Positions 13,057-59,957 of a DNA stretch of 64,000 nt are shown piece after piece. The stretch's first letter is position 1; every line of letters begins with the position of its first letter. Origin of the DNA: Catajapyx aquilonaris (Eukaryota); the NCBI GenBank assembly GCA_000934665.2, contig JYFJ02001487.1:1-64000 (forward strand), written 5' to 3'. Below the pieces are notes generated by a model. That model saw nothing but the letters and a program-made list of their open reading frames with translations, was not told the DNA's origin and did not search any database. The position numbers were made by a program, and so were the translations under genes.

Positions 13057-16000
13057 CTATAATAACGTTGACTTGGTTGCTGTAATTCCGTAGCACCTTG
13101 GAGACGTCACAGGATCGAACAACCTGACAAGATGGGCTTCGGAAACGCTATCCTTGAAGGACAAACAGAAAGAAAAAAAAATTGTTATATAGTGGTCCCA
13201 GAAGAATAGTAAAGCCGATATTTTTACTGTATGGTAACCCATCAAAACTTACATCTTCGAGCAAAAAAGCCAATCGATCCAACAAGATGAGTCCTTCGAT
13301 AACTGGGGCCAGCACCGTCCTAAGTTGAAAGAACAGGTCGAGCTTCTTCTGGTACGGCAAGTATTGCTCCAACAATTTGGTCGCATCGACACCTTCAGGC
13401 TGTAACAAAATATAACACTGTTAAGCACATATTTCCGCAAATGATGTCACAGCTTAATTATTTGAATTCGTCTCCCTTTCACCATCTCATCATTTTTTTT
13501 TAACACCTTGTTTTCCATGAAGAGTCGGAAAACTTGTTCTGATAATAAGGTCAAATGCTGTCAATTCTATAAATTGCATAAAGTTGATGGCGTCATATAA
13601 GCTCACCTGTTTCAACTTCAACTTATCCATCGCCCGTCTAAGGTAGTCAGGAAAATCTTTACTTTTGGCAGCAATTCTTCCAACGTGAAATTCCGCCACC
13701 TGGTCCCCATAATTTTCCCTCAGTACCACCTGAAGCAAGGCTCGGTAAAACAAGGATTTGCTTGGCACCTGAAAAATTAATTACCATGCCATGTAAACAT
13801 CCGCAAAATCCTGTCAAAGGTCAAGTTCGTGCCAGTCCTTGACTGCACCCAGCAATGGCATTTAATTAATCACACCTTGCCATTACACAATTAATAATTA
13901 TTTTTTTCCTTCATACCGATTGAAGTTGTCGGATTCTCTCGAGAGGCTGTGCAGCCAACATCCTCGCGTTTCTTCCCAGGCAGCACCTTTTCTCCTTGGC
14001 GTATTTGCTCATTGGGAAACCAGATCCTTCAGAAGCCTCGTGGTCCTTCCAAAACTCGGGCAGTTCAAACTCCTCGTCCAGAAGGTGGTAGCAACACCCA
14101 ACGACGCACATCCCTTTGGCCTCTTTGCACCTGGCAAACAGTCTCAACATGTGAGGACCCAAATTTCCACATGTGTGAAGCCCAACAAGGACCATGCTTT
14201 CGGGATGGTCACCAAATTCGGATGACACGAGAGCAGGAAGATCTGTTCGGTCTGTGACGTACGATGTCACTCGCTTGTAGTTGTCAGATGATGCCCAATC
14301 AGCACCGCCCCAAATCCTCTAAAAAATAATAATAAAGCAGGTGAACCCCGAGAAAACCCACGCCACCGACTGGTACACACAAAAAAAAATCCCAGAATCA
14401 GACGGTAAAAATACCGACCCTAATTATACCTGCAATATTCAGGCCTGCTTGTCAGCGAAACCAAAATATGAATGACATTTGGTCATTTGTGTGCATGCAA
14501 TGTCAACACACTGAAAGCTTGTCATTCTGCGATTGTTTCCGCGTGATTTCGTGCGTGATCGTACAACCAGTTTTTATATATATAAATCCACTTGTTGTGA
14601 ATCGATCATCGCCTTTTATAGAAGGCTATTCGATTCGTTGCTATAAAATTTGGGTATGAAACTTCAGATGGATGTGTGGCACGCACTATATACAGCATAT
14701 GCACAATATGAGCATCGATTACCAAGGCTCGTATAAGGAAATTGACCCCGTCTTATCACGTTATTATTCCCGGAGCACACCCTTTCATCGACCCCCTGCA
14801 CTTTTCTTACGTGCTCCTTTGGGGTCAACTTCTGTTTGTTTTTTGTTTTTTAATCCGGTGTAATTCCACACCCAGCACCTGAGCACTTGACTAATCACGT
14901 AGAGTGCGTGCGTACCGTTGTATGTATAATCCCTTTGGCTAATGAGAGTTGGACTTGTAGAAACCTTTCTCAGAATTAGCTTAACTGCACAGCGCAAATT
15001 GTGTGAAATAAATAAATCCGCCTAAGTGCCAAATTTGACATTTAAAAAAAATAATGTGTGAAGTAGAACGGCTATTAATGGGCGTTATTTCGCTATTCAA
15101 GGTGGCGGTTGTAAAGCAAGTAATAAAATAAGTGCGTAGTTCGTTAACAATAAATATTTCGGGCTGTCCCCTCCCCTCTGGGTGACCTGGGCGTCAAGCA
15201 AGTACTGACCTTACACCATAACGAGGTGTTGTGGCTTCCAGAACGGCCTTGCAATCTATCGCACCCATGACCCCCATAACCACTGGTACAACAAAGTGCA
15301 ATTAAACTTCAACTTAAAAAGGGGGGGAAGAGAAAATATGAAACCGCAGACTCGCCCAGTTGTAATTGTTATGCCTGCAGGGGCAACGTGCTTTCAAAGA
15401 CGTAACTATAGCTGGTAGGTCCTTGGAGTCATAAGCGCAAAATAATAATAAGCAGGCGGAGCAACATGCCAGCAGGACAAGAGTGCACGATTAGTATAAT
15501 CAGTACGTGTATTAATAATTATTTTTACTCACTACATGATAGTTGCGTAATTCATCGACATAAAAATGTGTCAGGTATCGAATAAGTCACATGTTACAGG
15601 TGGATGAGCTGTAAGACTACTAGGAATACAAATGTCGATAATACCTATAGGAAATTATTGAGAAACTCTGTACATAATAATAGCCACTCACTGTACAGTA
15701 TTTTTTTGTGTAATTAACTCACTCCACTATAGTGCAAGATTACAATGCACATATGCAACATTTCAATATAAATTATTAATTGCAACTCATGGGTGGGACA
15801 GTAAGAGGAGGGCATTAGGATAATGATATGTGACATAACCGGGTTAGAGCTATGAACACGCACATACCTACATGTTTTATTAACTGATAATAATAGTTGC
15901 ATACTTCCATATATGAAATAGCTTGCGACACATTTGGCATACCAAGTATATCCCAGTAGACTCCTAATTACTATTTAAAAAAGGCCTTCTTAAAAATAGC

Positions 16001-17435
16001 AGCAAAATGTCAATAACGTAATTGAACCAGAATTACGCAATGAAAATGAAAATTATACTGTTGTGCTATTATTATTAATACAGTCGAACCCCGATTATTA
16101 TGTCACCAACAGGACTGGGGCATAATCGGATAACCGAAACGGTAGGGGAATCCGTGGAGTAAAAAAACTTTAATAAAACACAATAAAAAACATATAAAAA
16201 CATGAAATAACGTACAAAATTATTGTTTTCTAAGAAATAGTGAAGTATTTATCTTTTACACCCACTCTACTGTACTGTATTTACAACTTAACTACAGCAG
16301 AACAAACAAATGTGTAGAACGTGACAGTATGTAATGAAAAAAAAAAACAGATTTATAGCCGGAGCGGGATGGTCGGATAAACAGAGGAGTCGGATAATAA
16401 TCGGGGTTCTACTGGACCTCAAATTGAAAATATTTAAATATATTACACATAAAATCTGTTATGTGCTGCAACAATGTGTAGCTAATTTGGGGCACACTGT
16501 CCTGAGAAACAATGGCCTTCAAGGATTTTGTGCCGACTCAATAATAATATCGAGAGTCTCTATTAATAATGAACCTGCACACTGGCAATGAGTTATGTAT
16601 GAGATCGTGCATTATTTATTAAAGCACCAGGAACATTCCCAAATGTCTGTAAGACGATGTCACTCTCACTACGATGGCAAGCAGAATCAACCATGAAACC
16701 TGAACCTGCAGGATTTAATTGACATCAGGTTAGGTTAATTATTTTTAATCACATAGCAAGGGTTCCTCGGCTACTTGTAGCACCTATCAAATTAGGCACA
16801 TCTTTAGGAGAGGAGCCCTATGGATGAGCCTCTTCTCTTTCAACCCTATCAAAATTCCGTATAATGGACGGCTACCATCATGCAATGCACACGAAAAAAT
16901 TTGTACTCACCTGCAATTTTCCAGCCCTCTTTTCATCTCCACTGGTGTTAACGACTGATGAATCAATTCCCATGACTCTCAGTCCGTTCTTGATGGACAG
17001 GAAAGTACTGAGATAACCCTTCCCACTTCCGATGTCAACCACAACAGTAGCTCTGACCTTCCCGACCAGTCCGTTCACCACAGGACTCATCACCTCTACC
17101 TCATGAGCCTTCTTCTCTGACATGCACGTGTCGTATCTACGCCAGTCTGTATCACCCTCACACAAGAAAGCACAATCGGCCAGATTGGTGCACATTCCAA
17201 GTCCTTGCAATGTGTGATTCTGAGCAGCACTCACAAACTGCCCTGTGTACGGCAATCTTGACTCATAAATTGACTCGGATAACACGTCCAGCTCAGATTT
17301 GATGTCGTGAGGTACTAGGTTGTTCCAGTGATCATTCGTAATAAAGTCCACCATGTGGCAGTTAGCGATAGGGAGATACGGCTCCAGAAAGAGGACAACA
17401 CGCTCTATCGCAGCATAGATAGAGTTAACTGCCAT
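13057..17435 (-). CDS. METTL25: Methyltransferase-like protein 25
   Basis: Exons 17435-16911, 14318-13917, 13768-13607, 13399-13253 and 13152-13057, with all introns phase-0 GT-AG. Motifs: ANCHMVDF, MSEKKAHEV, SAM motif I VVDIGSGKGYL, VGLHTCGNL, VGCCYHLL, RNARMLA, LFYRALL, LILLDRLAFL, LFDPVTSPR. The ATG is in a good context (CAAAAATGG). Confidence 0.93.
16081..16414. mobile_element. Tc1/mariner (pogo/Tigger-like) MITE in METTL25 intron 1
   Basis: Terminal inverted repeats CAGTCGAACCCCGATTATTAT (from 16081) and ATAATAATCGGGGTTCTACTG (ending 16414), with 1 mismatch. Left flank is TA and right flank is GA (degenerate TSD). The interior is AT-rich and non-coding. Confidence 0.8.
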
Positions 17436-17511
17436 TTTTGGGCTAATGTCACGCACTTGCACTTTTGAAGCACCTTATCCTAATCAGTCTCTTTATTATT
17501 ATGTCTGGTGT

Positions 17512-18045
17512 TTAGAATGAGAGTGTGTCTTCCCCATAAACCGGCACTAGCATCTTCATCTGTAAGAATGCCGTCCTGAACTTGGCCCTGATGTGCCTCA
17601 TCATCTTGACTGTATCAACCTCCTTGATGTTCTCTCTTGGAAACGCCTCGATCATCGCCAGCAGTGCCTCCAGAGTCGCCTTCACCCTCGAATTGTTCAC
17701 AGTAACATTTGGATTGTCCGCACCACTCTCGGCCCCCTTCACCTTCGAGTTGTCTGCCTTCAACTTTAAGTTGTCAGTCTCAATCCACGTGAGAAGAACA
17801 CGTGCCATTCCCTCATAGTACCCCAGCTCTCCTCCAATCTCCGCTCCTTTACGATGACCAAGTGCGTACCCCTCCTCCTCCCCTTGCTTTCTACCCAAGA
17901 CCAATCCTTCCTCGTAACCCTGTCGTACGATGTGATCCTCACTCATCACAACGTCGTCAAACGCTGCATTCACATCATCTTCTGGCCGTTCCTCTGGTGC
18001 GTTGGGTGCTCCGAGTGGCCCTAGCCAGCTGGTCCCTTCCGCCAT
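17512..18045 (-). CDS. LTO1: LTO1/ORAOV1 homolog (Yae1_N deca-GX3 motif; ABCE1 Fe-S maturation adaptor)
   Basis: Single coding exon with ATG at 18045: FDDVVMSED..GYEEGLVLGRKQGEEEGYALGHRKGAEIGGELGYYEG (GX3 repeats)...IEAFP..N...IRAKFR. A 5'UTR intron 18054-18252 is likely (GTAAAT donor, TTGCAG acceptor). Confidence 0.9.
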   Translation of the reverse strand: MAEGTSWLGPLGAPNAPEERPEDDVNAAFDDVVMSEDHIVRQGYEEGLVLGRKQGEEEGYALGHRKGAEIGGELGYYEGMARVLLTWIETDNLKLKADNSKVKGAESGADNPNVTVNNSRVKATLEALLAMIEAFPRENIKEVDTVKMMRHIRAKFRTAFLQMKMLVPVYGEDTLSF

Positions 18046-18336
18046 TAATCCAACTGCAATGTAATAAGCACATGCTGCATTTAGAACAACTGTCTGCATG
18101 CTCAAGGTACTGTTCATGCCAAAGCTACATTACATTGTCTTTAACTGGTCTTTAACACACATCATACTTGCCCCTATTGGACCGGGCAGAACACTACCCA
18201 ATCCTACAACCACCATAATAATAATTTAACATAAATCTAGAACGCAATTTACCTTAAAAATGACTCAAAATATTCATATTTTCTGCAGCACACGTGAAAG
18301 AGCAACAGACGGCTGCGACCGAAATAGCCACGCCGC

Positions 18337-18373
18337 TGTGACGTCACATATCCTGTCACTGTGTGACGTCACA
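18337..18373. promoter_or_regulatory. Bidirectional promoter core with two perfect palindromic CRE sites (TGTGACGTCACA x2) between the LTO1/METTL25 unit and the THAP gene
   Basis: Identical 12-bp palindromes at 18337-18348 and 18362-18373 lie in the ~200-bp gap between the LTO1 5'UTR exon donor (18252, -) and the THAP ATG (18454, +). Confidence 0.65.
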
Positions 18374-18453
18374 GAAATTAGACGCAGCCAGCCGTGCAGC
18401 ATTGCCGTGCACGGCGTGCAGGGTTGGGTACTTGTTGCTTTTTTATTTTAATA

Positions 18454-21362
18454 ATGAAGTGTGTGGCTTTGGGATGTCCCAACAAAGGAAGCCATCGTTT
18501 TCCACGTGATCCGTCGCTGAAGGAGAAGTGGCTGGCGGCACTTGGAAGGGAAGCTTATACGCCCGAGTCCAGGGTGTGCCGGATGCACTTCAGAGACGAG
18601 GACTACAGGAAGGAAGGATATGCATCTGGTGTGTGTGTTTTCATATGTATAAATATTTGATGACGATTTATTGTACATTGTGGCCAGCTTCTTCTGTGAA
18701 AATTGTTGTCAATGTCCCAATATCCCCCCAAAAAGGGTACTGCCCTCGAAAGGGGTTTCGTAATAAATAAATAAATTGTTGTCAACGCCACAAATAGAAA
18801 GTATAACTGCTGATTCATTACCATATACATCTGTTTCTCAGGCCACGTCCTTGAGAAGAGAATACTGAACACAGGTGCAGTTCCATCAGTTTTCTCGTTG
18901 AAGAGGATATCAAGTCATGCTGTGGTTAATGGTCGGGTAGCGAGGAAGCCCAAAGAGAAGAGAGGTGAAGTCAGGTGTTATCAGAGCAAATCAACAGTGC
19001 CTGAAACTCAAACCGTAGACCTTGGAGCTCTAAGGTCTATGACTCAAACAACTGAGGAAGAAGGATCTGCAAGAACTCGTGGTGTGGTTTATGGTCGGGC
19101 AGTGAGGAAGCCAGAAGAGAAGAGCGGTGAAGCCAGGTCTAATCAGCGCAACACCATCACAGTGCCTGAAACTCAAACAACTGCGGAAGAAGGATCTGCA
19201 AGAAATCGTGTTGTGGTTTATGGTCGGGCAGTGAGGAAGCCAGAAGAAAAAAGAGGTGAACCCAGGTGTTATCAGCGCAAAACCACAGTGCCTGAAACTC
19301 AAACCATAGACCTTGGAGCTCTAAGGTCTATGACTCAAACAACTGCGGAAGAAGAATCTGCAAGCATTCGTGCTGTCGTTTATGGTCAGGCAGCGAGGAA
19401 GCCAGAAGAGAAGAGCGATGAACCCAGGTGTTATCAGCGCAAAACCACAGTGCCTGAAACTCAAACCATAGATCTTGGAGCTCTAAGGTCTATGACTCAA
19501 ACAACTGCGGCAGAAGAATCTGCAAGAACTCGTGCTGTCGTTTATGGTCAGGCAGCGAGGACGCCAGAAGAGAAGAGCGGTGAACCCAGGTGTTATCAGC
19601 GCAAAACCACAGTGCCTGAAACTCAAACAACTGCGGAAGAAGAATCTGCAAGCGATCAGGCTGTGGTTAATGGTAGGGCAGCGAGGAAGCCAGAAGAGAA
19701 GAGAGGTGAAGCCAGGTCTAAACAGCACAACACCATCACAGTGCCTGAAACTCAAACGACTGCGGAAGAAGNGCAAGAACTCGTGCTGTGGTTTATGGTC
19801 ATGCAGCGAGGAAGCCAGAAGAGAAGAGTGGTGAAGCCAGGTGTTATCAGCGCAAAACCACAGTGCCTGAAACTCAAACAACTGCGGAAGAAGAATCTGA
19901 AAGCATTCGTGCTGTCGTTTATGGTCAGGCAGCGAGGACGCCAGAAGAGAAGAGCGGTGAAGCCAGGTCTAATCAGCGCAACACCACAGTGCCTGAAACT
20001 CAAACACCTGCGGAAGAAGAATCTGCAAGCAATCGCACTGTGGTTGATGGTCAGGCAGCGAGGACTCCAGAAGAGAAGAGCGGTGAAGCCAGGTCTAACC
20101 AGCGCAACACCATCACAGTCCCTGAAACTCAAACAACTGCTGAAGAAGAATCTGCAAGCGATTGTGCCGTGGTTTATGGTTGGGCAGCGAGGAAGCCAGA
20201 AGAGAAGAGAGATGAAGCCAGGACTTATCAGCGCAAAACCACAGTGCCTGAAACTCAAACACCTGCAGAAGAAGAATCTGCAAGCGATCATGCTGGGGTT
20301 TATGGTCCGGCAGCGAGGAAGCCAGAAGAGAAGAGCAGTGAAGCCAGGTCTAAACAGCACAACACCATCACAGTCCCTGAAACTCAAACAACTGCTGAAG
20401 AAAAGTCTGCAAGCGGTTGCTGTATTTACTTGTTCCTTGCTGATTCATGTGTAGACGTTTGTGAGGTTGACGTGACATATGATCCAAATGCGCAATCAGA
20501 ATCTCATGACAATATCTGCAATGTGCTTTCTCTTCCGATGAAAATTCAGAGTGAAAGTAGTGTGGAAGTTACTTCAGTGGGTACTCAAACAGTTTTCAAA
20601 GCTTCAGTTTCTTTTGATAAGTTGAAGGACACACCGTCGTGTGTGAGTTATTACACAGGTTTTGAAGCTTTTGACAAATTACAGCTTGCTTTACGTTCAC
20701 TGGGGCCAGCAGCATATGACTTGACATATCGATATGATTCCATTGTCCAGGTTTCTGTTGAGGACCAGTTCCTACTGACTCTGATTAAGTTGAGAAGGGC
20801 CATTCCTGACTTTGGGCTGGCCATGATATTTGATGTTAGTGAAAAGATTGTGCAGAACATTGTGATCACTTGGTTAAATTTCATGTACCATGAATGGACA
20901 AATTCAGCATTTCAGAAAGCAACTTTCAGCAAGTACAAAAAGAGAACTAGATCGAAAGATTTAGGTGGAACGACACCAAGTGGGCTCATTACCTGCAGTG
21001 ATCATTCATATTCAGGTTCTGCTAGTATGATTGTTGAGAGAAGTGACCTTCGTGAAAAGTGTGACCCATCAGCTGATTCTGTCATGTCAGACAGAGATTT
21101 GAATGTTCAAGATAGCATTGCACCCAGTCACATGACATTTAATATGCCAGCTTTTACCAAAGGAATGCGTCGGCTGCCTGGTCTCCCCGTTCGCAAAGGT
21201 AGAAAACGGTCCAGGAAAAGGGTCCGCATTGAGATAATCACTGAACTGACTAATACGTACAAAATACTGAAATGTAAACTCCGCCCTCCTTACGCAGAGT
21301 TAGGGTCGGAAATATTTTTTGTATGCTGCACCCTTTGCAATTTTCGTGAGGGTGTTGCGTAG
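18454..21362 (+). CDS. THAP zinc finger + tandem-repeat linker + HTH_Tnp_4 + degenerate DDE_Tnp_4 (ISL2EU/PIF-Harbinger-type transposase-derived protein)
   Basis: Exon 18454-18628 (MKCVALGC..HRFP..W..RVCRMHF), then phase-1 intron 18629-18841, then an exon from 18842 with GAVPSVF completing the THAP domain. Repeats follow, then YYTGF, SVEDQFLLTLIKLRR..LAMIFDVS..WLNFM (transposase HTH) and QKATFSKYK..TPSGLI..SGSAS..IVERS..SVMSDRDLNVQD..KRVRIE..YKIL..CCTLCNFR (DDE_Tnp_4-like). The only frame break coincides with an assembly N at 19772. Confidence 0.8.
18915..20414 (+). repeat. Minisatellite of 11 units (126-165 nt) in frame within the THAP gene
   Basis: The core T(G/C)CCTGAAACTCAAAC starts at 18998, 19163, 19289, 19451, 19613, 19742, 19864, 19990, 20119, 20245 and 20374. 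The spacings are 165, 126, 162, 162, 129, 122 (contains the N), 126, 129, 126 and 129 nt. A typical unit reads RAVVYGQAARKPEEKSGEARSNQRNTITVPETQTTAEEESAS. Confidence 0.95.
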
Positions 21363-21727
21363 GATCTCACACATAATAATTAATAAGTTATATTATACCG
21401 AACCATTAGCTCTTGATGACTGAACCAAGACTGACCTGATTGTTATTATATTTCAGTCATGCCCTGTGTGTCAGGTGTGAAAATATTACCTCATTACTTG
21501 CAAAATAATCTGTTAATATTTTGTACACTTACAAATTCTATATATTTGCATTGAAAAATAAATATGTTTGGCATGTTCCCGATAACATGAAATACCTTCA
21601 TTACACAACAGCAACTTATCTATGATACAAAAAATAAATAAATGGAAGGTCCATTTGCAACAGTTTTTTTGTAGGTACATTTTTGATTTTATATATAAAT
21701 GTGCGAAATTCGCGCCACATTGTGGTC

Positions 21728-22206
21728 GCGCATGCGCTCTGTGCTGCTCCAACTTCAATGCTGCAAAAAAAAACAATTATTACGATAATTGCTCTACATT
21801 ACCATCCCCCGATTCAGTAATCAAAGTTTAAATTAGGTTTAAAAGGCTTTTTCGCGAATACACGTTTGCAACTTCACGTATGCCTCTTCAATACAATGTG
21901 TAGTACGCACGCGCAAGATATTACGTTGAACTGATTGCTTCATACTCAGCAATCAAACAAATTAATCAGCCGCACTAATCAACCTTTTTTCCAATCACCA
22001 AACGATATCACTAATCACCAAATTCGGCCGCCCCCTCCAATTTACACATAACCAGTATCCACCTAGTGCGCATGCTCCACGTTCCTTCCGGTATTCCCAT
22101 TGGCCAATAATAACCAGCTCTCTAATGGCGACTAGCACGTCAAATAAGTGGCGCCTGATTTTAATTAAATATTAATGATGGTGCTGTAGGTAGCGCCATC
22201 TGGTTC
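21728..22206. promoter_or_regulatory. Putative OAT upstream elements: NRF1/Ewg-type GCGCATGCGC, a second near-match, CCAAT boxes and a CTCF-like site
   Basis: GCGCATGCGC at 21728-21737, TGCGCATGCT at 22067-22076, CCAAT at several positions, and TAGCGCCATCTGG at 22191-22203 (reverse complement CCAGATGGCGCTA). These are motif matches only. Confidence 0.35.
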
Positions 22207-22358
22207 CGACCGGTGCGGACTGGTTCCACGATCGGTCGGGTGGGCGGTTCAAAAACCTGATTGCCAAGTCCTACTTTGCTCTCCTTTCATTCAAGACCAA
22301 CCAGTCCGTCTCGGTGGCAGCTCCGGAGTGCACGTCTTTGTCTCGTCCTCCAGCAACA

Positions 22359-24686
22359 ATGGTGCCTGTCAGCAGCTCCCTTCTTCTGAGGACGGTGCAG
22401 CGAGCCACTCGGTCATTGTCCACATTAACCTCACAGCAGGTCTTTGACAGGGAGGCCACATACGGAGCGCACAACTACCATCCGCTGCCTGTCGCACTAG
22501 CAAAGGGAAAAGGTATGACCCAGCTTCAATCGTGCCGTACATGTTTTCACATAATAACACAAAACAGGTGTGTTCCTGTGGGATGTGGAAGGACGCCGGT
22601 ACTACGACTTCCTCAGCGCATACTCAGCCGTTAATCAGGGACACTGCCATCCACGCATACTGGAAGCATTGAAGAAGCAGGCCGAAGTACGCATTTTGTC
22701 AAGGATAAATCACCATTAGACGTCACAATGCCATTATCACCCAACAGGTGCTGACCTTGACCTCACGAGCTTTCTACTCCGAGGCGCTTGGAGAGTATGA
22801 GGAGTTTGTGACCCGCCTTTTCGGTTATGATAAGGTACTGCCCATGAACACTGGCGTCGAGGGAGGGGAGACGGCGTGCAAGATATCCAGGAAGTGGGGC
22901 TACCACCAGAAGGGAGTGCCGAGGAATCAGGCCAAGATCGTGTTTGCGGCCGGTAATTTCTGGGGGAGGTCGCTGGCGGCGGTGTCAAGCTCAACTGATC
23001 CGACGAGCTACGAAGGGTTTGGGCCATTCATGCCTGGATTCATGGTGGTACCCTTTGACGACCTGCTCTCTTTGGAGGTAAGGATACGAGAAAAATACTC
23101 AGCATTACATTTATTATAGCCACTGCTGACAAGTAGCGCCAGGTAGCGCATATTACAACAACAATTCAGCTCCGTAATTGAGCTGTCATACTGTGCAACG
23201 TGGCACGTAATAAACATATTTGCATACTGGCATACCATCTAGAAATGGAATCTCCAACTTGCGCTGACCCAAGTGTTATCGTAGGTGCCAGTGGCGCTTG
23301 GGAATGTCGTAAGCCACAAGAGTCCGATACACTAGTAGTGTAACATTGTTGCACAACACCCTAATGTTATCCTTGGCCCTTATCTTGCACCGATGTCTCC
23401 AGAATGTCTCCATCATCTAGTTATCTGAGGTCATGGGATGCCTGACTCGTAGTCATTATTTGATATCCTCATTAGTACAGACATCTTGAGTCAGGAATAT
23501 TACTTTTGAGTCAAACCAGTTGCACATTAGATGACTATGTACTTAACAATGTAGTAATCAGCATGATTAAATTGCTGAAGAATGATTGGAATGAAATGTG
23601 CAGTCAGCAAATTACATTATGATGAAGTACAATTTACGGATAGAAAAATTATGCATTAAAAAAAATTACGCTTTGAAATATTTCTTACGTGTATAATTAT
23701 TTCCATGGTACCATGCCTGAAATGCAGAACTTAGCACAAATATACATCTTGTTAAACCTCTTATCGGCTTTAGTTGTCACATTCGGATTTCCATAGTGGG
23801 TGGGATTAAGATAAGGATGTTGCTAGTAGCAGCTTTGCAAAGCAAAAAGGGACGACTAGCACATGATATATTGGAGAACCTGAACTTACCTTCGCTCTAA
23901 TTTCAGACTGTACTGCAAGACCCAACAGTTTGTGCGTTCATGGTAGAGCCCATCCAAGGTGAAGCTGGTGTAGTGGTCCCGTCTGACAACTACCTTCGTG
24001 AAGTCCGCCGCTTATGCACCAAGCACAAAGTTCTGTTTGTGGCCGATGAAGTCCAGACTGGTTTGGGGCGCACTGGGATGCGCCTTGCCTGCGACTATGA
24101 GGAAGTCCGACCTGACATACTGGTGTTGGGGAAGGCCCTGTCTGGAGGAACCTACCCGGTCTCCGCTGTGTTGGCAGATGATCCCATAATGCTATGCATC
24201 AAGCCAGGGGAGCATGGCAGTACCTACGGAGGCAATCCGTTGGCTTGCAAGGTTGGGGTGGCTGCTCTCCAAGTGCTGGAAGAAGAAAGACTGGCTGATA
24301 ACGCAGCAAAGACGGGAAGATTGCTTCGAGAAGAGTTGAGGAAGCTGCCAAAAGAAGTTGTCACAGCCGTTCGGGGGAAAGGATTGCTCAATGCCATTGT
24401 CATCAACAAGAGTAAGTATATTTTTTTGTGAATTAGGCAGATTCTACTTCTATTTTGTGAAACACACATTTGCATTGAATAGTGTATCTCACTATATTTC
24501 CCTAATGCTATTTCTGTTTCAGAATTTGATGCTTGGGATGTTTGTGTGCGTCTAAAGGAGAATGGACTCTTAGCAAAGCCTACTCATGGAGATATCATCC
24601 GTTTTGCACCTCCACTGGTGATAACTGAGGACCAAATCCATGAATGTGTTGATATCATCAAGAAAACAATGATGTCTTACATGTAA
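22359..24686 (+). CDS. OAT: Ornithine aminotransferase, mitochondrial
   Basis: Exons 22359-22512, 22568-22686, 22748-23077, 23907-24411 and 24523-24686. Arg/Ser-rich targeting peptide, then [59 protein letters not shown] lysine [17 protein letters not shown] and [22 protein letters not shown] signals lie at ~24996-25018. Confidence 0.98.
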
Positions 24687-26242: not shown

Positions 26243-31374
<5,132 letters not shown>

Positions 31375-34057: not shown

Positions 34058-50001
<15,944 letters not shown>

Positions 50002-59759: not shown

Positions 59760-59957
59760 TATTTGGATTTTACATTGGATTTTTTGAATAAATTAATATT
59801 ATTGTGAATTTTACATTGGATTTTTTGAATAAATTTATATTATTGTGAATTTTACATTAGATTTTTTTGAATAAATTAGTATTATTGTGAATTTTACATT
59901 GGATTTTTTGAATAAATTAATATTATTGTGAATTTTACATTGAATTTTTTGAATAAA
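59760..59957. repeat. AT-rich minisatellite, ~5 copies of a 41-42 nt unit
   Basis: Units of TTACATTGGATTTTTTGAATAAATTAATATTATTGTGAATT start at 59770, 59811, 59852, 59894 and 59935. Confidence 0.9.

What the first reader, a model, noticed from the sequence alone, without database searches (positions are those of the whole stretch)
18454..21362. Candidate domesticated ISL2EU/PHIS-type transposase: DNA-binding modules kept, catalytic core deleted in frame
Seen: an intact C2CH THAP finger with AVPS box, an intact transposase HTH and an open DDE_Tnp_4-like C-terminus. Compared with my recollection of the family consensus, ~40 aa containing the first catalytic Asp (the IIDxTE strand) are missing between WLNFMYHEW and TNSAFQKATF. 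The GSASD Asp is also lost, and ADKGF has become SDRDL. The frame stays open for ~300 codons after the repeats. I see no TIRs and no neighbouring YqaJ-type second gene, and the ATG lies ~200 bp from the LTO1 5' exon. Inference: a non-mobile, possibly host-recruited chromatin or DNA-binding factor, analogous to (but independent of) HARBI1 and other THAP proteins.
Basis: partly seen in the sequence, partly recalled or inferred. Interest (0 to 1): 0.7.

Follow-up and report, generated by a model that had tools for sequence, protein, structure and literature searches.

The report
Disarmed jumping-gene enzyme, probably kept
An animal gene descended from the cutting enzyme of an ISL2EU jumping gene has lost its cutting core and its element ends but keeps its DNA-binding parts, an open reading frame and a transcribed 3' end, so it is probably a young host-kept DNA-binding protein, which is a known kind of event.

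Summary
The two-exon gene (about 899 aa) is THAP, then 11 coding repeats, HTH and a DDE_Tnp_4 remnant. An in-frame 123-nt deletion removes the first catalytic Asp and its whole beta-strand. Corrections: the second catalytic Asp and the Glu are kept; the intron is inherited from ISL2EU elements; one assembly N (19772) interrupts the frame in the repeats. Relatives are ISL2EU elements with YqaJ partners; this locus has no YqaJ gene and no TIR above chance. A spliced run from a second study holds the 3' end, stopping 20 nt after AATAAA. Decayed copies 85-89% identical exist in the same sample's reads, one keeping the deleted segment, so the event is young. For selection: an open frame where neutral decay predicts about 4-12 breaks, and only in-frame indels. 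Against: no significant dN/dS signal, conserved residues lost as often as in the dead copy, no ortholog found. Best reading (0.55): a young, catalytically dead DNA-binding neogene, most likely a repressor at ISL2EU-type sites; rival (0.3): a transcribed relic. The scan noted a similar domesticated ISL2EU gene in another genome (e1-7468902).

The parts
18255..18453 (.). Putative shared (head-to-head) promoter with the LTO1-like gene; two TGACGTCA palindromes at 18339 and 18364
   Evidence: CpG observed/expected 1.17 against 0.65 for the window; 2 of the 3 such palindromes in 64 kb lie here. Function inferred; 'CRE' as a name for the motif is recalled.
18454..18628 (+). Coding exon 1: THAP zinc finger, all four zinc ligands (C3, C8, C42, H45)
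   Evidence: Pfam THAP E 4.6e-11; human THAP1 structure 2ko0 E 0.0006; alignment with 20 relatives
18629..18841 (+). GT-AG phase-1 intron splitting a Gly codon; inherited from the transposon
18842..18921 (+). Start of exon 2: THAP C-terminal part with the AVPS box at 18877
18922..20423 (+). Eleven coding tandem repeats of 126, 129 or 162 nt (42, 43 or 54 aa), charge-balanced and low in hydrophobic residues; they start where relatives have a basic segment after THAP; THAP-to-HTH linker about 592 aa against 83-215 aa in 35 relatives
   Evidence: all 10 fully read units are multiples of 3; 18 synonymous and 42 non-synonymous variants, as expected without amino-acid constraint
19772..19772 (.). 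Single N (assembly gap) that shifts the assembled frame; true repeat number uncertain
20616..20897 (+). Helical domain with HTH_Tnp_4 (Pfam match about 20751-20891)
   Evidence: E 1.2e-10; pLDDT 85-97 over residues 31-120; 1 of 15 conserved columns changed
20897..20900 (+). Junction of the in-frame 123-nt deletion: two short helices and the whole first catalytic strand with the first Asp
   Evidence: strand E218-229 in the intact control model; a decayed copy in the same sample has 125 letters in place of 2 here
20901..21362 (+). DDE remnant and stop: second Asp (21090) and Glu (21231) kept, 2-codon deletion after 21026, 1-codon insertion near 21070, C-terminal helices kept
   Evidence: 13 of 44 conserved columns changed, median 2 in 56 intact relatives; pLDDT 36-63 over residues 131-230 and about 90 over 241-270
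21192..21227 (+). Gained basic patch, 9 Lys/Arg in 12 residues; candidate nuclear localisation signal
   Evidence: Highest of the 54 relatives scored, whose maximum is 7 in P0003 and mode 5; function inferred, found post hoc
21363..21582 (+). Putative 3' UTR with AATAAA at 21557
   Evidence: 505-nt contig of run X5 covers 21078-21582 with 1 difference

Best explanation
An ISL2EU transposon inserted between the LTO1-like and ornithine aminotransferase genes, lost its ends and its YqaJ gene, and its transposase gene came under a head-to-head host promoter. It is now a young, catalytically dead neogene kept in frame by selection. SHOWN: ISL2EU ancestry; loss of the first catalytic Asp with its strand; intact THAP and HTH; no element ends or partner; 3' end in a spliced run. 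INFERRED: the protein enters the nucleus through the gained basic patch, binds DNA with THAP and HTH held apart by a long disordered repeat linker, and cannot cut. Most likely job: occupying ISL2EU-type end sequences or sites derived from them, and so damping transposition or nearby transcription, in the manner of internally deleted P-element repressors. Selection seems to act on having a full-length DNA-binding protein more than on exact residues. I give 0.55 to 'functional kept gene' and, within that, about half to the repressor role against a host-gene regulator role.
For: No stop or frameshift in 1191 nt of non-repeat CDS. Neutral models give P(0) 0.014 to 4e-6 at 5-10% divergence with 0.05-0.1 indels per substitution, and 6e-4 to 2e-5 using the decay I counted by hand in the two relics. 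All five indel types are multiples of 3: 123, 6, 3, and 36 and 3 in the repeats. The 89% identical relic has five gap events in 325 nt and the second relic a stop. Run X5 (another sample and study) skips a 55-nt GT..AG intron of the neighbouring gene, has no depth over 21608-22244, and holds a contig ending 20 nt after AATAAA. HTH 1 of 15 against DDE remnant 13 of 44 conserved columns changed. The model keeps the HTH and loses the RNase H core, whereas the intact control has pLDDT above 90 over most of it and matches transposases and integrases at Z up to 9.4.
Against: Against the relic, 11 of 29 listed differences are synonymous, P 0.05-0.18 against neutrality. By outgroup residues about 5-7 amino-acid changes fall on this gene's branch and about 5-6 on the dead copy's (my reading). 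The HTH-versus-DDE contrast has Fisher P 0.09. The repeats show no amino-acid constraint, and their lack of stops has P 0.07-0.13. With stops alone and 3-5% divergence, P(0) is 0.10-0.25, and the locus was picked because it is open. No ortholog found; best identity 50-55%. RNA support is one low-depth contig of unknown strand for the last 285 coding nt only. The two models used alignments of different depth (16 and 35 rows).
Confidence: 0.55

Rival explanations
1. A transcribed relic: a dead ISL2EU copy read passively from the neighbouring bidirectional promoter, drifting neutrally or nearly so, whose frame has stayed open by luck and by the frame-keeping nature of repeat slippage.
For: No significant synonymous excess against the relic; near-invariant residues changed in the HTH region, such as Val to Ala at position 55 and Phe to Val at 28; neutral-looking repeats; the intron is inherited; no ortholog.
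Against: Sister relics at the same distance carry indels and a stop within a few hundred bases; expected disruptions about 4-12; THAP ligands, AVPS box and splice sites all intact.
Confidence: 0.3
2. An old domesticated gene, orthologous to the unnamed protein P0003; the 85-89% copies are then dead duplicates of the host gene made before the deletion.
For: P0003 is the top hit among 1.84 billion representatives, groups with this gene at 89/90 support, is also degenerate in the DDE part (11 of 44 columns, Glu to Asp) but not in the HTH (1 of 15), and also has a 1-residue insertion and a basic patch at the same places.
Against: The branch is not starred and dissolves in the HTH-only tree; both are long branches; the inserted residues differ; rare shared residues number 5, no more than with ordinary relatives (4-7); P0003 has no intron gap and no repeats; its neighbours could not be read.
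Confidence: 0.1
3. A still mobile non-autonomous deletion derivative, or an assembly artefact.
For: One N in the array; no whole genome was held to count copies.
Against: The junction is continuous in separately assembled contigs of three runs of one sample; no TIR above chance; no near-identical second copy was laid, apart from a 118-nt variant over 21339-21456 in two runs that reads as an allele.
Confidence: 0.05

Closest known systems
ISL2EU group of the PHIS superfamily (PMC4482050 and PMC4122938, passages read)
   Same: THAP + HTH + DDE transposase; 5 of the 7 shared residues of the published motif kept (K, second-last D, P, R, E by my mapping onto P0001); same THAP intron as related elements; nested among insect ISL2EU transposases in the tree.
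   Different: First catalytic Asp and strand deleted; no YqaJ gene, no TIR; linker about five times longer; not a mobile element.
KP element and stationary P-element neogenes of Drosophila (KP as self-encoded repressor: passage in PMC8700633; domesticated P in the montium subgroup: passage and reference title in PMC8434751; further details recalled)
   Same: THAP-bearing transposase derivative that has lost catalysis and mobility; the model for the proposed repressor mechanism.
   Different: Different superfamily; here an internal in-frame deletion leaves the C-terminus in place; repression is untested.
Domesticated PIF/Harbinger transposases: HARBI1, DPLG, APLG, LPLG, BPLG, ALP1, HDP1 (PMC9710019, passages read)
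   Same: DDE_Tnp_4-type transposase gene without TIRs between host genes.
   Different: Those are old, syntenic across species, have dN/dS 0.04-0.33 and are often co-domesticated with a Myb/MADF partner that supplies nuclear import. This gene is THAP-bearing, young, has no partner nearby, has related relics in the genome and no shown orthologs.
THAP + HTH_Tnp_4 + DDE_Tnp_4 genes listed as host THAP factors (PMC13228809 and PMC10027918, passages read)
   Same: Same domain set.
   Different: The passages I read class them by domains only and do not describe a catalytic-core deletion or repeat expansion.

Membership tests
ISL2EU transposon (autonomous) | Transposase with THAP, HTH and DDE domains | tested here: met
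   Pfam hits for all three
ISL2EU transposon (autonomous) | Transposase falls among two-gene ISL2EU elements | tested here: met
   20 of 20 related loci tested (picked from the 32 of 80 loci of at least 3.5 kb) carry a convergent YqaJ ORF; the closest of them, L001, sits next to this gene's clade
ISL2EU transposon (autonomous) | Intact DDE triad | tested here: not met
   First Asp deleted; second Asp and Glu kept
ISL2EU transposon (autonomous) | Second ORF with YqaJ exonuclease | tested here: not met
   13 YqaJ proteins, best E 0.032 far from the locus; OAT begins about 1 kb downstream
ISL2EU transposon (autonomous) | TIRs usually starting GG and AT target duplication | tested here: inconclusive
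   Nothing above shuffles, but TIRs can be as short as 6 bp (PMC4482050) and my exact 13-mer search found arms in only 3 of 32 long related loci, so the test is weak
Domesticated transposase gene (criteria of PMC9710019) | Intact coding region | tested here: inconclusive
   Open on both sides of the N at 19772; continuity across it inferred
Domesticated transposase gene (criteria of PMC9710019) | Syntenic orthologs in other species | not testable with these tools
   No animal genomes to search; protein searches found nothing above 50-55% identity over the domain
Domesticated transposase gene (criteria of PMC9710019) | Purifying selection (dN/dS significantly below 1) | tested here: inconclusive
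   Only against a dead paralog over 89 codons: 11 synonymous, 18 non-synonymous, P 0.05-0.18
Domesticated transposase gene (criteria of PMC9710019) | No related copies in the genome | tested here: inconclusive
   No near-identical second locus, but two decayed pieces at 85-89% in contigs of the same sample; only the 3' half was laid
Domesticated transposase gene (criteria of PMC9710019) | Transcription | tested here: met
   3' 505 nt in run X5, judged RNA from a spliced GT..AG joint; one run, strand unknown
KP / P-neogene-type repressor (works-like comparison) | Binds cognate element ends and lowers transposition | not testable with these tools
   Needs binding and excision assays
HARBI1 / PIF-derived genes | PIF/Harbinger transposase with Myb/MADF partner | tested here: not met
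   THAP present and relatives pair with YqaJ

The most novel reading that the evidence does not exclude
ISL2EU transposases are repeatedly turned into host-encoded repressors by one route: loss of the YqaJ partner and of catalysis, gain of their own nuclear signal at the same spot before the catalytic Glu (here and, independently, in P0003), and retention of THAP and HTH. This gene would be a very young case caught beside its dead sisters, with an 11-fold amplified charged linker as a new effector or spacer.
Probability: 0.15. Interest if true: 0.65.

Novelty: new member of a known kind. Interest (0 to 1): 0.36.

Why it matters
Transposase domestication with loss of catalysis is well known, so the type of event is not surprising. 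Three full-text searches listed no paper whose title or abstract start describes a domesticated ISL2EU transposase; that library lacks most subscription papers and I read only passages. The value of this locus is as a young, datable case: dead sister copies at 85-89% identity give a built-in neutral control for the first steps of domestication, and the gained basic patch gives a direct test of whether ISL2EU transposases depend on their YqaJ partner for nuclear entry, as PIF transposases depend on Myb-like partners (PMC9710019).

Tried and rejected
No whole genome is held for this window, so copy number and synteny could not be tested directly. The run search listed no holder on record as RNA (no RNA holder listed); X5 was judged RNA only after laying it. 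X5 has no cover over 20425-21077; this is not used either way. Only 20425-23150 was laid, so the THAP exon, intron and repeats have no read evidence. A search with the THAP exon among longer proteins found nothing (weak). The longer-protein search with the C-terminal part gave only a chimeric ant-like model, P0183. Exact look-ups of three LTO1 readings and of the C-terminal ORF found none in the collection, so the distance to the nearest sampled species is uncalibrated; the Atlas gave only family-level hits. No solved structure matches the transposase by sequence; Foldseek gave no match at E 0.001 and VIA-align only HTH-type rows at Z up to 5.0, which excludes no fold. The bacterial promoter scan found nothing and does not apply to an animal. 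One paper on Harbinger nuclear import could not be opened; I rely on its account in PMC9710019. Searches for P-neogene papers gave reference titles only. No supplements were read; the family tables of PMC4482050 might bear on which ISL2EU family this is. Rejected: the intron as evidence of domestication (ancestral); loss of the second Asp (kept); orthology with P0003 as shown. Rows left out: the first tree used 43 rows after 9 of 46 chosen proteins failed my trimming pattern and is a quick tree; the second used 19 chosen rows; the conserved-column count used 56 of 82 intact-triad relatives; the relic comparison used the 29 of 34 differences that one search lists.

Full report
Setting. The window is animal DNA with spliced genes; the closest named relatives of the transposase come from ants and thrips, so an arthropod is likely, but I did not establish the species. 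The gene lies on the plus strand between an LTO1-like gene (minus strand, Yae1_N hit) and ornithine aminotransferase. No whole genome is held.

Anatomy. Exon 1 (18454-18628) encodes most of a THAP finger (Pfam E 4.6e-11). A GT-AG intron (18629-18841) joins it in frame to the AVPS box. Eleven tandem units of 126, 129 or 162 nt follow (18922-20423); the ten fully read units are multiples of 3 and free of stops, and the sixth holds the window's only N (19772), which shifts the assembled frame. If the N stands for the 5 nt seen in the other units the protein is 899 aa. The repeats begin where relatives have a basic segment after THAP and stretch the linker to about 592 aa against 83-215 aa in 35 relatives. 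Then come HTH_Tnp_4 and a DDE_Tnp_4 match that starts at profile position 16.

The deletion. In an alignment with 182 proteins, 150 span both sides of the junction; 115 have 42 residues there, none fewer than 21, and this gene has 1. In the AlphaFold model of the intact relative P0001 (mean pLDDT 81.5, above 90 over most of the core) the missing part is two short helices and the strand 218-229 that carries D223. That model matches ISCth4, piggyBac and Tn5 transposases at Z 9.3-9.4 (rmsd 4.8-5.6, 211-246 residues aligned) and integrase cores at Z 8-8.8. The model of this gene keeps the helical HTH domain (pLDDT 85-97) and the C-terminal helices (about 90) but not the core (36-63), and gave only HTH-type rows at Z up to 5.0. 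The two alignments differed in depth, so this is supporting, not decisive. That these three are the triad follows from their positions in the model and from my knowledge of RNase H-fold transposases; the underlining that marks the triad in PMC4122938 was not visible in the text. With one metal ligand and its strand gone, cutting activity is very unlikely (inference).

Family. A scan of metagenome contigs returned 80 related loci. Of the 32 that are at least 3.5 kb, I tested 20 with a long convergent ORF and all 20 encode YqaJ, the arrangement that defines ISL2EU in the passages read from PMC4482050, PMC4122938 and PMC9179366. Here there is no YqaJ trace and no inverted repeat beyond chance, though the TIR test is weak. 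The intron is ancestral: 22 of 25 spliceable loci have it at the same Gly codon. This makes the predicted splice very likely, and removes it as evidence of domestication.

Reads. Laying four runs on 20425-23150 gave three results. First, contigs of the three runs from the likely source sample cross the deletion junction with no difference. Second, the same runs hold a 3319-nt contig with 34 substitutions and five gap events over 325 nt, which has 125 letters where this gene has 2, so it keeps the deleted segment and is frameshifted; a second piece (16 differences in 104 nt) carries a stop. The family therefore had copies in this lineage recently, and the deletion arose after the split from the first relic. 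Third, run X5 from another sample and study skips a 55-nt GT..AG intron of OAT, breaks off at two further OAT exon ends, has no depth in the intergenic stretch, and holds a 505-nt contig over 21078-21582 that ends 20 nt after AATAAA. I read this as a polyadenylated transcript of the gene's 3' end. The tool warns that contigs cannot show ends, strand or level, so this is one modest line of evidence.

Selection. For: 1191 nt of non-repeat CDS without a break, where neutral decay at 5-10% divergence with 0.05-0.1 indels per substitution predicts 4-12 breaks and the relics' own hand-counted rate predicts 7-11; five indel types, all in frame; HTH 1 of 15 against DDE remnant 13 of 44 conserved columns changed, where 56 intact relatives have a median of 2 and only two exceed 13. 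Against: Fisher P 0.09 for that contrast; 11 synonymous of 29 differences from the relic (P 0.05-0.18); about as many amino-acid changes on this branch as on the dead copy's, some at near-invariant sites; neutral-looking repeats; the divergence and indel rates in the models are assumed; and the locus was chosen for being open. No ortholog turned up in three word searches or in an HMMER scan of 1.84 billion representatives, but I could not calibrate how near the nearest sampled species is.

P0003. The top hit is an unnamed protein on a 12.3-kb contig that is also worn in the DDE part and also has a basic patch before the Glu position. It joins this gene at 89/90 support in the full tree and is unresolved in the HTH-only tree. 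Orthology is not shown; parallel decay or parallel recruitment is as likely.

Mechanism. The simplest account is promoter capture: the ATG lies 200 nt from the LTO1 5' exon across a CpG-rich stretch with two TGACGTCA palindromes. The product has two DNA-binding modules, no working active site, a long charge-balanced linker (72 Lys+Arg, 76 Asp+Glu in 459 residues) and a new patch of 9 basic residues in 12, the highest among 54 relatives. PIF transposases often need their partner protein to reach the nucleus (PMC9710019, passages); a self-made signal would free this protein from its lost partner, though whether ISL2EU enzymes need YqaJ for import is not known to me. All of this mechanism is inference.

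Verdict. A real, immobile, catalytically dead ISL2EU-derived gene, probably transcribed, probably but not demonstrably kept by selection, and young. It works, at best guess, like a P-element-type repressor neogene; it is not a member of the autonomous ISL2EU elements nor of the HARBI1/PIF-derived genes. It is a new member of a known kind. I found no printed ISL2EU domestication, while this scan has noted such cases in other genomes (e1-7468902, e1-7319971; unchecked). Interest 0.36.

Noticed in passing
window 19014-19041, 19305-19332, 19467-19494: The 36-nt extra block in three repeat units is a 28-nt near-perfect palindrome flanked by an 8-nt direct repeat. It may be a tiny element footprint with an 8-bp target duplication, or the other units may have lost it by hairpin slippage; 28+8 keeps the frame. 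No other copy in the window.
   Followed up: partly
window 18339 and 18364; 21728 and 22068: Two TGACGTCA palindromes in the LTO1/THAP intergenic stretch, and two GCGCATGC motifs (NRF1-like, name recalled) upstream of OAT; both stretches have CpG observed/expected near 1.2.
   Followed up: partly
window 13911-18253, minus strand: A METTL25-like methyltransferase gene (Methyltransf_32) starts within about 40-100 nt of the LTO1-like stop codon, so the two may share a transcript or be very tightly packed.
   Followed up: no
window 27875-31047 (+) and 37379-46958 (-): Two paralogous genes that look like CNNM/unextended metal transporters (names recalled from the ORF translations) face each other.
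   Followed up: no
window 21339-21456: A minor variant with 3 substitutions and 2 indels just after the stop codon is seen in two runs of the source sample; contigs drop simple variants, so the lack of coding variants is no evidence.
   Followed up: no
window 21751-21791: A 41-nt piece upstream of OAT matches another contig of the same sample at about 80%; possibly a small dispersed repeat.
   Followed up: no
P0003, P0090, P0099, P0107, P0162: Several database relatives keep THAP or HTH and the C-terminal helices but have a worn DDE core and long branches; they are candidates for further independent ISL2EU-derived genes.
   Followed up: partly
window 59760-59957: AT-rich 41-nt tandem repeat, about 4.8 copies.
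   Followed up: no
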